DNA from: the human T2T-CHM13v2.0 reference genome, Homo sapiens | Direction: 5' to 3' (one strand) | Assembly: GCF_009914755.1 (NCBI RefSeq) | Contig: NC_060935.1 | DNA: 64,000 nt | In this document: piece after piece, positions 2,440 through 4,460 of the stretch | How positions within the stretch are numbered: position 1 is the stretch's first letter | How the letters are laid out: the number at the start of each line of letters is the position of its first letter | Position numbers and translations under genes: made by a program | The notes under the pieces: generated by a model | Databases searched by the model: none | What the model was told of the DNA's origin: nothing | What the model saw: only the letters and a program-made list of their open reading frames with translations

Positions 2440-2541
2440 GTTCCATTGCCTTCTCTTTCCCCCACAATGCAGGCAGGCACCATAGCCCGTTGGGAAAAAA
2501 AAGAGGGGGACAAAATCAATGAAGGTGACCTAATTGCAGAG
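2440..2541 (+). CDS. DLAT: DLAT exon 2 (lipoyl domain 1, N-part)
   Basis: ttttccag|[52 protein letters not shown]. Confidence 0.97.
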
Positions 2542-2553
2542 GTAAGTTTTTTT

Positions 2554-4193
2554 TTTTTTTTTTAATTAATTTATTTATTTTTTTTATTGATCATTCTTGG
2601 GTGTTTCTCGCAGAGGGGGATTTGGCAGGGTCATAGGACAATAGTGGAGGGAAGGTCAGCAGATAAACAAGTGAACAAAGGTCTCTGGTTTTCCTAGGCA
2701 GAGGATCCTGCGGCCTTCCGCAGTGTTTGTGTCCCTGGGTACTTGAGATTAGGGAGTGGTGATGACTCTTAAGGAGCATGCTGCCTTCAAGCATCTGTTT
2801 AACAAAGCACATCTTGCACTGCCCTTAATCCATTTAACCCTGAGTGGACACAGCACATGTTTCAGAGAGCACAGGGTTGGGGGTAAGGTCACAGATCAAC
2901 AGGATAAGAATTTTTCTTAGTACCGAGCAAAATGAAAAGTCTCCCATGTCTACCTCTTTCTACACAGACACGGCAACCATCCGATTTCTCAATCTTTTCC
3001 CCACCTTTCCCCCCTTTCTATTCCACAAAACCGCCATTGTCATCATGGCCCGTTCTCAATGAGCTGTTGGGTACACCTCCCAGACAGGGTGGTGGCCGGG
3101 CAGAGGGGCTCCTCACTTCCCAGTAGGGGCGGCTGGGCAGAGGCGCCCCTCACCTCCCGGGCGGGGCAGCTGGCCAGGCGGGGGCTGACCCCCCCACTTC
3201 CCTCCCGGACGGGGCGGCTGGCTGGGCGGGGGGCTGGCCCCACCACCTCCCTCCCAGACGGGGCGGCTGGCCTGGCGGGGGCTGACCCCCACCTCCCTCC
3301 CGGACGGGGTGGCTGCCGGGCGGAGACGCTCCTCACTTCCCAGACGGGGTGGCTGCCGGGCGGAGGGGCTCCTCACTTCTCAGACGGGGTGGCTGCCGGG
3401 CGGAGGGGCTCCTCACTTCTCAGACGGGGCGGTTGCCAGGCGGAGGGTCTCTTCACTTCTCAGACGGGGCGGCCGGGAAGAGACGCTCCTCACCTCCCGG
3501 ACGGGGTCGCGGCCGGGTAGAGGCGCTCCTCACATCCCAGACGGGGCGGCGGGGCAGAGGCGCTCCCCACATCTCAGACGATGGGCGGCCGGGCAGAGGC
3601 GCTCCTCACTTCCTAGATGGGATGGCAGCCGGGCAGAGACGCTCCTCACTTTCCAGACTGGGCAGCCAGGCAGTGGGGCTCCTCACGTCCCAGACGATGG
3701 GCGGCCAGGCAGAGACGCTCCTCACTTCCCAGACGGGGTGGCAGCCGGGCAGAGGCTGCAATCTCGGCACTTTGGGAGGCCAAGGCAGGCGGCTGGGAGG
3801 TGGAGGTTGTAGCGAGCCGAGATCACGCCACTGCACTCCAGCCTGGGCACCATTGAGCACTGAGTGAACCAGACTCCGTCTGCAATCCCGGCACCTCGGG
3901 AGGCCAAGGCTGGCGGATCACTCGCGGTTAGGAGCTGGAGACCAGCCCGGCCAACACAGCGAAACCCCGTCTCCACCAAAAAAATACGAAAACCAGTCAG
4001 GCGTGGCGGCGCGTGCCTGCAATCGCAGGCACTCAGCAGGCTGAGGCAGGAGAATCAGGCAGGGAGGTTGCAGTGAGCCGAGAAGGCAGCAGTACAGTCC
4101 AGCTTCGGCTCAGCATCAGAGGGAGACCGTGGAAAGAGAGGGAGAGGGAGACCGTGGGGAGAGGGAGAGGGAGACGGAGAGGGAGAGGGAGAG
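2554..4193 (-). mobile_element. SVA retrotransposon, near full length, antisense in DLAT intron 2
   Basis: On + strand: poly(T) tail, SINE-R (~2590-3070), GC-rich VNTR (~3080-3750), Alu-like region (~3750-4110), (AGAGGG)n hexamer (~4118-4193); TSD GGTAAGTT(G/T)TTTT. Confidence 0.96.
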
Positions 4194-4460
4194 GGTAAGT
4201 TGTTTTAAAGTAACGGAGATGAGTTCGAAGAGACTGGCTTTGCCTAATTGACTGAACATTGACTTTCTGGATGTGTAGCTACCCCTTTGTTTAAGAAACT
4301 GAAGTGTTTTTCACAACTTGATGTTAGACAAGATTGGTTGGATAAGTTGTCAGCAGCTGGCCAAACTGATTTTAACCAAGGCGTTTCTAAAGTAATTTCT
4401 TCTTTGAAATCTGTCGTAGTGGCCTTATCTTCACATGAACTGTATAATTCTAGACACAAA

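What the first reader, a model, noticed from the sequence alone, without database searches (positions are those of the whole stretch)
2541..4206. SVA inserted at the DLAT exon 2 splice donor; its TSD creates a second GTAAGT donor 1.65 kb downstream
Seen: exon 2 ends GAG|GTAAGT and runs straight into the SVA poly(T). After the hexamer the sequence reads GGG|GTAAGTTGTTTT|AA (4194-4206), a copy of the donor ending in an L1-endonuclease TTTT/AA site. Known: TPRT duplicates the target site, and antisense SVAs carry cryptic acceptors. Inference: the intron has two consensus donors bracketing the SVA. The distal donor could pair with an acceptor inside the SVA (e.g. ttttcctag ~2697) or extend exon 2, giving a hominid-specific poison exon that splits lipoyl domain 1 just before K132. 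The U-run after the true donor may favour correct splicing, and VNTR or hexamer length could tune DLAT output.
Basis: partly seen in the sequence, partly recalled or inferred. Interest (0 to 1): 0.8.

Follow-up and report, generated by a model that had tools for sequence, protein, structure and literature searches.

The report
SVA retrotransposon beside DLAT splice donor
A full-length SVA jumping element sits six to eight bases past the end of DLAT exon 2 and its insertion copied the splice signal, but nothing seen here shows that the second copy is ever used.

Summary
Exon 2 ends at 2541 with GAG|GTAAGT and runs into a 17-T run. A complete antisense SVA follows: tail, SINE-R, VNTR, Alu-like region and hexamer, 2548-4195. 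After it comes GTAAGTTGTTTT/AA. One correction: the distal 9-mer is AGG|GTAAGT, not GGG|GTAAGT (GT at 4195-4196).

The flanking repeat, 2541-2553 against 4194-4206, matches at 12 of 13 bases and ends on a TTTT/AA L1 endonuclease site. It is a target-site duplication of 11-13 nt. The insertion point was +8 to +13 of intron 2, which is unusually close to an exon.

The exon 2/3 junction does fall at residue 127|128, five residues before K132 of lipoyl domain 1. Every SVA-containing splice product I modelled is out of frame or stops early.

The poison-exon reading is unsupported:
- No RefSeq exon boundary lies inside the intron.
- No acceptor scoring above 1 bit lies within 165 nt upstream of the distal donor.
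- Six of the ten best-scoring GT sites in DLAT are not annotated donors.
- The true donor keeps its exon and has gained a U-run where TIA proteins bind.

The distal copy is most likely a silent or trace-level pseudo-donor. No RNA data or ape orthologues could be examined. I found no printed description.

The parts
2440..2541 (+). DLAT exon 2 (codons 94-127, first half of lipoyl domain 1)
   Evidence: Hub annotation; AG/GT verified; translation; Pfam Biotin_lipoyl 3-35/73, E 6.5e-06
2539..2547 (+). Working donor GAG|GTAAGT (GT 2542-2543)
   Evidence: crude PWM 11.38 bits leave-one-out, top of 91 GT in the intron scan
2541..2553 (.). Upstream copy of the target-site duplication GGTAAGTTTTTTT (TSD proper 11-13 nt; the first two G may instead match the hexamer end)
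   Evidence: D9; 12 of 13 identical to 4194-4206
2548..2589 (-). SVA poly(A) tail read as poly(T)/A-T-rich tract on the + strand; 42 nt, 2.4% G+C
   Evidence: Seven other SVA copies show the same kind of T/TTTA tail next to the same SINE-R end
2590..3093 (-). SINE-R domain (antisense to DLAT)
   Evidence: 2410 first-look candidates in the own genome; 40 of 40 scored match at 96-100% identity over about 500 nt
3094..3756 (-). VNTR, units of 37-49 nt, 73.8% G+C, 53 CpG
   Evidence: TRF; repeat family D1, 15 copies; composition
3757..4117 (-). Alu-like domain. The fragments read as sense Alu on the + strand, so they are antisense within the SVA
   Evidence: 3 of 3 blastn matches to the sense Alu at 4460-4687 are plus/plus; aligns with other SVA copies
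4118..4195 (-). Hexamer region, (CCCTCT)n read as (AGAGGG)n on the + strand; short and interrupted, nine G-tracts
   Evidence: TRF period 6, 10.2 copies, 4136-4195; G-tracts. Same opening sequence in 3 of 3 comparators that reach the 5' end
4192..4200 (+). Distal donor-like 9-mer AGG|GTAAGT (GT 4195-4196); not annotated
   Evidence: PWM 9.95 bits, second of 91 GT. Identical 9-mer to the real DLAT exon 13 donor
4194..4206 (.). Downstream copy of the target-site duplication GGTAAGTTGTTTT
   Evidence: D9
4203..4208 (+). L1 endonuclease-type nick site TTTT/AA at the edge of the duplication
   Evidence: consensus 5'-TTTT/AA-3' as given in PMC4859970 (passages)
2689..2698 (+).
   Evidence: PWM 5.5 bits; real acceptors 1.09-15.55
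2880..2888 (+). Donor-like GGG|GTAAGG inside the antisense SINE-R. With 2698 it would frame a 185-nt out-of-frame cryptic exon
   Evidence: PWM 9.44 bits; modelled product stops at residue 152
4757..4881 (+). DLAT exon 3, begins VETDK(132)A
   Evidence: Hub annotation

Best explanation
A canonical, full-length SVA retrotransposon (about 1.65 kb, on the minus strand, antisense to DLAT) was inserted by the L1 machinery into intron 2. The first nick was at TTTT/AA, 13 nt into the intron. The staggered second nick lay at or just beside the exon edge. The resulting 11-13-nt target-site duplication therefore carries the intronic half of the donor.

The upstream copy stays attached to exon 2. It keeps +1 to +8 unchanged and is followed by the element's poly(T). 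That places a U-run where TIA1/TIAL1 bind and help U1 recruitment, so exon 2 is still defined and spliced normally. This explains how an insertion so close to an essential exon could be tolerated.

The downstream copy is fused to the purine- and G-run-rich (AGAGGG)n end of the SVA and keeps the whole ancestral intron behind it. It has no exon or usable acceptor in front of it. It most likely acts as an unused or trace-level pseudo-donor.

Shown: the anatomy, the duplication, the reading-frame consequences, and the lack of annotated use. Inferred: the TPRT order of events, TIA help, and silence of the distal site.
For: Anatomy:
- Hexamer, VNTR and poly(T) by TRF and direct reading.
- SINE-R matches 40 of 40 scored copies at 96-100%, out of 2410 candidates in the same genome.
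- Other copies align across 2547-4204.
- The Alu-like part is plus/plus with a sense Alu.
- This domain order is the SVA definition in PMC4859970 (passages).

Duplication:
- 12 of 13 identical, ending on TTTT/AA.
- TSDs of 4-20 bp and this nick consensus are given in PMC4859970.
- Comparators L002 and L008 show 17- and 15-nt repeats at the same two borders (read by eye).

True donor favoured:
- 11.38 against 9.95 bits.
- A 102-nt exon with a 15.55-bit acceptor lies upstream.
- U content at +10..+28 is 15 of 19, against 5 of 19 behind the distal copy.
- TIA crosslinking is enriched 10-28 nt downstream of exons, and binding behind the intron-distal of two 5' sites predicts its use (PMC2964331, passages).

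Distal donor unused:
- No RefSeq exon boundary in 2542-4756 (hub table).
- The best acceptor-like sites are 2968 (7.39), 3464 (5.67) and 2698 (5.5). The nearest to 4194 is 4029, at 0.92 bits.
- Of 2269 GT on the DLAT sense strand, 10 score at least as high as the distal site and 6 of those are unannotated. One is GAG|GTAAGT at 22003, identical to the exon 2 donor.
- Seven G-runs lie in the 60 nt upstream.
Against: The distal 9-mer is identical to a real constitutive DLAT donor, exon 13.

It lies 562 nt from the exon 3 acceptor, against 2215 nt for the true donor. It keeps the entire ancestral intron downstream. From recall, not checked here: in vitro, a strong 5' site nearer the 3' site tends to win.

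The purine-rich tract in front of it could act as an enhancer rather than a silencer.

An antisense intronic SVA in TAF1 does disturb splicing and lower expression (bioRxiv 10.1101/149872, passages).

RefSeq seldom records NMD-degraded isoforms, so their absence there is weak evidence.

My PWMs come from only 24-25 sites of this window and are crude. MaxEntScan and SpliceAI were not available. No RNA-seq data, ape orthologue or population data were seen.
Confidence: 0.75

Rival explanations
1. The distal donor is used, either as a 1.65-kb extension of exon 2 or as the 3' end of an SVA-derived cryptic exon. This would give NMD-targeted transcripts that lower DLAT output in hominids, to a degree set by VNTR or hexamer length.
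For: The motif is strong (9.95 bits, second of 91 GT) and is the same 9-mer as the exon 13 donor. Eight of the nine splice products modelled (six containing SVA sequence, plus the 2524 donor variant and exon 3 skipping) stop early, for example VSFFFFF* after read-through. The ninth, 2968-3122, adds 155 nt and shifts the frame. SVAs are known to activate cryptic splice sites (PMC5754783, passages). TEs close to exons more often appear in chimeric ESTs (PMC3088655, passages).
Against: No annotated exon boundary lies in the intron (hub table). There is no acceptor above 1 bit within 165 nt upstream of 4194. The named acceptor scores 5.5 bits and is 1.5 kb away. Unused consensus donors are common in the same gene. 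The hexamer is short, about 10 units, against 35-52 in the one case where its length matters (PMC5754783). A predicted G-quadruplex would sequester the +1 G (in silico only).
Confidence: 0.12
2. The SVA matters for DLAT, but through transcription rather than through the duplicated donor. It is a CpG-rich, G-rich block starting 0.9 kb downstream of the transcription start. It may act as a methylated or repressed patch, or as an enhancer, or as an obstacle to RNA polymerase II, with intron retention as seen in XDP. This can coexist with the best explanation.
For: The VNTR is 73.8% G+C with 53 CpG, and the Alu-like part has 22 CpG. The element spans 2548-4195 and the TSS is at 1650 (hub table). 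SVAs behave as CpG-island-like regulators in reporter tests (PMC9148063, passages). In the XDP case, an antisense SVA causes intron retention and reduced TAF1, rescued by excision (10.1101/149872).
Against: Nothing specific to this locus was found. There were 0 papers with DLAT + SVA + transposable, 0 with DLAT + SINE-VNTR-Alu, and 1 irrelevant paper with DLAT + SVA + retrotransposon. Only one canonical G4 motif (loops of 7 nt or less) lies on the sense strand of the whole intron, at 4140-4171. Most intronic SVAs have no known effect.
Confidence: 0.2
3. The flanking repeat is a chance match or microhomology, not a target-site duplication. The second GTAAGT would then be an accident of the hexamer end meeting TAAGT.
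For: G4194 and G4195 could belong to the last AGAGGG unit. The Ts of the upstream copy are indistinguishable from the poly(T). The strictly informative match may therefore be as short as TAAGTT.
Against: The match sits exactly at both element borders. It extends to 12 of 13 bases and ends on a perfect TTTT/AA. Its length is within the usual 4-20 bp (PMC4859970). Other SVA copies show repeats at the same borders.
Confidence: 0.03

Closest known systems
Canonical full-length SVA retrotransposon insertions mobilised by L1 (as reviewed in PMC4859970)
   Same: Same domain order, poly(A) tail, TSD length and TTTT/AA nick site. The SINE-R is 96-99% identical to other genomic copies.
   Different: The position. 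The element starts 6-8 nt past a constitutive coding exon, so the TSD contains the donor consensus. The junction of hexamer array and GTAAGT occurs once in the assembly.
XDP-causing antisense SVA in TAF1 intron 32 (PMC5754783; bioRxiv 10.1101/149872)
   Same: An antisense, intronic, full-length SVA. The pre-mRNA carries (AGAGGG)n and a G-rich VNTR. Hexamer-length tuning and intron retention are documented there.
   Different: The XDP hexamer has 35-52 units, against about 10 interrupted units here. The XDP element is a rare disease allele deep in an intron, whereas this one is in the reference assembly at the exon edge. No expression effect is known here.
L1 insertion into the RB1 intron 14 splice acceptor, where the TSD spans the splice signal (described in PMC4859970)
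   Same: A retrotransposon lands in a splice-site consensus, so the TSD overlaps the signal.
   Different: That insertion disrupts splicing and causes disease. Here the duplication leaves an intact donor on the exon and splicing is annotated as normal.
U-rich TIA1/TIAL1-dependent intronic enhancers downstream of 5' splice sites (PMC2964331)
   Same: A U-run occupies +6 to +22, covering the 10-28-nt window where TIA crosslinking is enriched.
   Different: Here the U-run is the tail of a retrotransposon. TIA binding at this site was not tested.
TE under-representation zones near exons (PMC3088655)
   Same: The element lies inside the most depleted zone. That study counted only seven full-length L1s within 20 bp of an exon in the reference human genome.
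   Different: That study did not cover SVAs: 0 mentions in its main text.

Membership tests
SVA (SINE-VNTR-Alu) retrotransposon | 5' (CCCTCT)n hexamer array | tested here: met
   TRF period 6, 10.2 copies, 4136-4195, read as AGAGGG/GAGAGG on the + strand
SVA (SINE-VNTR-Alu) retrotransposon | Alu-like domain made of antisense Alu fragments | tested here: met
   3757-4117 gives 3 of 3 plus/plus matches (73-85% identity) to the sense Alu at 4460-4687. The fragments are therefore antisense within a minus-strand SVA
SVA (SINE-VNTR-Alu) retrotransposon | GC-rich VNTR | tested here: met
   3094-3756, periods 37-49 and 40 nt, 73.8% G+C
SVA (SINE-VNTR-Alu) retrotransposon | SINE-R domain shared with other SVA copies | tested here: met
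   40 of 40 scored genomic matches at 96-100% over about 500 nt; 2410 candidates. Homology to HERV-K itself was not tested.
SVA (SINE-VNTR-Alu) retrotransposon | poly(A) tail, flanking TSD and L1 EN nick site | tested here: met
   Poly(T) and A/T-rich tract 2548-2589; TSD 12 of 13; TTTT/AA at 4203-4208
SVA subfamily (A-F) / human-specific or shared with apes | Diagnostic SINE-R positions; presence or absence in ape orthologues | not testable with these tools
   No subfamily references and no primate genomes were held. I built no consensus. Pairwise identity to the best copies is 97-99%, which only says the copy is young.
Poison (NMD-coupled) exon | Inclusion seen in transcripts | tested here: not met
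   No exon boundary in 2542-4756 in RefSeq's lists for the 14 DLAT transcripts (hub table). RNA-seq was not available, so this test is weak.
Poison (NMD-coupled) exon | Premature stop upstream of later exon junctions | tested here: met
   Modelled products stop at residues 135-172
Poison (NMD-coupled) exon | A usable acceptor-donor pair at exon-like spacing | tested here: inconclusive
   For the distal donor, the nearest acceptor-like AG scores 0.92 bits, at 4029. A pair internal to the SINE-R, 2698 (5.5 bits) and 2882 (9.44 bits), is 185 nt apart. The PWMs are crude.
XDP-type pathogenic antisense SVA | Expanded hexamer (35-52 units) | tested here: not met
   About 10 interrupted units here, against 35-52 in PMC5754783
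TIA-dependent U-rich downstream enhancer | U-tract 10-28 nt downstream of the exon; TIA binding | tested here: inconclusive
   The sequence feature is met (15 of 19 U). Binding is not testable here.

The most novel reading that the evidence does not exclude
The duplicated donor, fused to the G-run-rich hexamer, is a hominid-specific decoy 5' splice site. It captures U1 and sometimes commits to the exon 3 acceptor. The resulting SVA-retaining or exon-3-skipped transcripts are removed by NMD. DLAT (PDC-E2) output would then carry a small splicing tax that varies with hexamer/VNTR alleles and with TIA1/TIAL1 or G-quadruplex-binding factors.
Probability: 0.1. Interest if true: 0.6.

Novelty: new member of a known kind. 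Interest (0 to 1): 0.35.

Why it matters
DLAT encodes the E2 core of pyruvate dehydrogenase, and exon 2/3 carries the first lipoyl-lysine. A 1.65-kb GC-rich retrotransposon starting 6-8 nt from that exon lies in the zone where fixed transposable elements are most depleted (PMC3088655). The locus shows plainly how target-site duplication can rescue a splice donor from an insertion.

It is also a natural experiment. Two copies of one donor compete. One keeps the exon. The other keeps the intron.

If the distal copy, or the element's length alleles, measurably change DLAT output, that would be a hominid-specific regulatory change in central metabolism. If not, the locus is a well-explained curiosity.

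Tried and rejected
1. Empty site inside the same genome. The unique flank 4196-4460 finds only itself (1 of 1 candidates). There is no paralogue without the SVA. No primate genomes are held, so the empty-site test stays open.
2. Earlier scan notes.
3. Recursive splicing at the distal site. The AG at 4192-4193 has a purine-only upstream tract and is not among the 25 best acceptor-like sites. Rejected.
4. Premature polyadenylation inside the antisense SVA. No AATAAA or ATTAAA lies on the + strand between 2542 and 4702. The only one in the intron is at 4703. Rejected.
5. RefSeq 'exons' 2440-2524 and 2525-2541 as evidence of an alternative donor. The two abut with no gap, which looks like an alignment split. 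The GT at 2525 scores 3.91 bits. Not used as evidence.
6. Subfamily and age. Not assigned: there are no reference subfamily sequences, and I chose not to build a consensus of a HERV-K-derived segment.
7. Papers. Look-ups of two papers I recalled, on SVA exon trapping and on 5' splice-site choice, failed by DOI and by guessed PMC id. Statements about the proximity rule, exon definition, exonic G-run silencers and KZFP/TRIM28 repression of SVAs are therefore recall only.
8. Print searches (main texts only; supplements not searched):
   - DLAT + SVA, whole word: 142 papers, and the 20 listed all appear to be unrelated expression-data studies, none about the retrotransposon.
   - DLAT + SVA + retrotransposon: 1 irrelevant paper.
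   - DLAT + SINE-VNTR-Alu: 0.
   - DLAT + SVA + transposable: 0.
   - DLAT + cryptic + splic + intron: 18 papers. I opened two and neither concerns DLAT splicing.
9. MaxEntScan and SpliceAI were not available. I used a PWM from the window's own 25 donors and 24 acceptors as a crude stand-in.
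Full report
**1. What is in the sequence**

Exon 2 of DLAT ends at g2541. The next bases are GTAAGT (2542-2547), running into a 17-T run at 2547-2563. An A/T-rich stretch continues to about 2589.

The components that follow, read on the + strand, are:
- A 504-nt segment, 2590-3093. It matches 40 of 40 scored places in the same genome at 96-100% identity, out of 2410 first-look candidates.
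- A GC-rich tandem array, 3094-3756, with units of 37-49 nt. It is 73.8% G+C with 53 CpG.
- A 361-nt segment, 3757-4117. It aligns plus/plus with the ordinary sense Alu lying further down the same intron, in 3 of 3 matches.
- An interrupted (AGAGGG)n array, 4118-4195. TRF gives period 6 and 10.2 copies for 4136-4195.

Read on the minus strand, the order is hexamer, Alu-like (antisense Alu pieces), VNTR, SINE-R and poly(A). This is the definition of an SVA given in the review PMC4859970 (passages). Other genomic SVA copies align with this one from 2547 to as far as 4204. They have the same SINE-R end, the same kind of T/TTTA tail and the same opening of the hexamer region. It is a canonical full-length SVA, antisense to DLAT.

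**2. The duplication**

GGTAAGTTTTTTT (2541-2553) and GGTAAGTTGTTTT (4194-4206) agree at 12 of 13 positions (family D9). They sit exactly at the two borders of the element. The downstream copy is followed by AA, which makes TTTT/AA, the L1 endonuclease consensus quoted in PMC4859970.

On the element's own strand this reads TT/AAAACAACTTACC, followed by the hexamer. The same string, with one C replaced by A, follows the poly(A). Two caveats apply:
- G4194 and G4195 could equally be the end of the last AGAGGG unit.
- The Ts of the upstream copy merge with the poly(T).

The TSD is therefore 11-13 nt, and the informative core is TAAGTT to GGTAAGTT. Two comparators (L002, L008) show 17- and 15-nt repeats at the same borders (by eye). 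The ancestral intron therefore began GTAAGTTGTTTTAAAG, and the SVA entered between +8 and +13.

**3. Coding context**

Translation of the annotated CDS puts the exon 2/3 boundary at residue 127|128. The TDKA motifs have their lysines at 132 and 259. That these are the lipoyl-lysines is my recall of the protein record. Exon 2 alone matches Pfam Biotin_lipoyl positions 3-35 of 73.

Read-through of the true donor gives VSFFFFF and a stop. Five other modelled insertions of SVA sequence stop between residues 143 and 172. A sixth (2968-3122, 155 nt) shifts the frame.

**4. Is the second donor likely to be used?**

I had no MaxEntScan, SpliceAI, RNA-seq or EST data. As a crude stand-in I built position weight matrices from the window's 25 annotated donors and 24 acceptors, all with GT or AG.

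Donor scores:
- The true donor scores 11.38 bits, leave-one-out.
- The distal one scores 9.95, second of 91 GT in the scan. This is above the median real donor of 8.37.
- GGG|GTAAGG at 2883, inside the SINE-R, scores 9.44.
- The distal 9-mer is identical to the real exon 13 donor.

So the motif is as good as a real one. Two controls weaken the inference from motif to use.
- First control: of 2269 GT on the DLAT sense strand, 10 score at least as high as the distal site. Only 4 of those are annotated donors. One of the unused ones, at 22003, is the same 9-mer as the exon 2 donor.
- Second control: acceptor-like sites in the intron are weak. Real acceptors range from 1.09 to 15.55 bits.

| Acceptor-like site | Score (bits) |
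|---|---|
| 2968 | 7.39 |
| 3464 | 5.67 |
| VNTR repeats | 2-4.7 |
| 4029 (nearest upstream of 4194) | 0.92 |

An exon ending at 4194 would therefore be either 462 nt or longer, or an exon with almost no acceptor.

RefSeq's exon lists for the 14 DLAT transcripts (hub table) contain no boundary between 2542 and 4756. This is weak evidence, because NMD substrates are seldom annotated.

**5. Why the true donor still works**

It keeps exon 2, a 102-nt exon with a 15.55-bit acceptor, and +1 to +8 of the old intron. Behind it the SVA tail supplies 15 U in the 19 nt at +10..+28. The distal copy has 5 of 19 there.

In PMC2964331 (passages), TIA1/TIAL1 crosslinking is enriched 30-fold at 10-28 nt downstream of exons. 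TIA proteins recruit U1 snRNP. Binding behind the intron-distal of two competing 5' sites predicts use of that site.

On the other side, the 60 nt before the distal donor hold seven G-runs. ViennaRNA with its G-quadruplex option places G4193-4195, including the +1 G of the distal donor, in a predicted quadruplex: -13.9 kcal/mol against -5.4 without it. This is an in-silico hint only.

**6.

- The distal site lies 562 nt from the exon 3 acceptor, against 2215 nt for the true donor.
- It keeps the whole ancestral intron downstream.
- An antisense intronic SVA in TAF1 causes intron retention and reduced expression, reversed by excising it (bioRxiv 10.1101/149872, passages).
- Hexamer length there tracks age at onset (PMC5754783, abstract and passages). 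That hexamer has 35-52 units, against about 10 here.
- TEs inside the depleted zones near exons appear more often in chimeric ESTs (PMC3088655, passages).

Trace use is therefore quite possible. A regulatory role is not evidenced.

**7. How unusual, and is it known?**

PMC3088655 shows strong depletion of TEs near exons. It counts only seven full-length L1s within 20 bp of an exon in the human reference. It does not treat SVAs. A full-length SVA starting 6-8 nt from a constitutive coding exon is thus a rare survivor. The TSD explains the survival.

The string joining the hexamer array to GTAAGT occurs once in the 3.1-Gb assembly.

I found no description in print. Five searches of main texts combining DLAT with SVA, transposon or cryptic-splicing terms returned nothing about this element or about DLAT splicing; section 8 of Tried and rejected gives each count. 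Supplements and subscription papers were not searched. The element itself is certainly masked as a repeat in public annotation: the hub table masks 2538-4198.

**8. What stays open**

- The age and subfamily of the copy, and whether apes share it.
- Whether it is polymorphic.
- Real splice-site scores.
- Any RNA evidence.

The unique flank has no paralogue in the genome, so no empty site could be examined.

**9. Verdict**

The structural interpretation (TPRT, TSD, two donors) is well supported. The functional interpretation (poison exon, tunable output) is unsupported but not excluded. I place about 0.75 on 'tolerated insertion, distal copy silent or trace-level' and about 0.1 on a real NMD-coupled effect. 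Separately, and not exclusively, I place about 0.2 on some transcription-level effect of the SVA on DLAT.

Noticed in passing
window 4446-4699: A 5'-truncated sense Alu (about 4460-4687, poly(A) 4663-4687) lies in the same intron. It is flanked by an exact 14-nt direct repeat, AATTCTAGACACAA (4446-4459 and 4686-4699). Without the SVA and this Alu, intron 2 would be only about 320 nt.
   Followed up: partly
window 22001-22009: An unannotated GAG|GTAAGT in DLAT intron 9, about 100 nt upstream of exon 10. It is the same 9-mer as the working exon 2 donor, so a perfect donor motif is not enough for use.
   Followed up: partly
window 37415-37423: The constitutive DLAT exon 13 donor is AGG|GTAAGT, the same 9-mer as the distal copy at 4192-4200.
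   Followed up: yes
window 2440-2541: RefSeq lists 'exons' 2440-2524 and 2525-2541, which abut with no gap. This looks like a transcript-to-genome alignment split rather than a splice. The GT at 2525 scores only 3.91 bits.
   Followed up: partly
window 4169-4195: ViennaRNA with the G-quadruplex option predicts a quadruplex from G-tracts 4169-71, 4181-83, 4187-89 and 4193-95. The last tract contains the +1 G of the distal donor.
   Followed up: partly
window 4737-4759: The exon 3 acceptor (…GTGTTAAAAG|GTT) has purines just before the AG. An AATAAA lies at 4703, 54 nt upstream. Its leave-one-out score is 7.8 bits, middling for the window.
   Followed up: no
window 2698-2882: Inside the antisense SINE-R, an acceptor-like site (5.5 bits) and a donor-like site (9.44 bits) lie 185 nt apart. 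The SINE-R is 96-99% identical among the scored genomic copies, so most antisense intronic SVAs probably offer the same pair.
   Followed up: no
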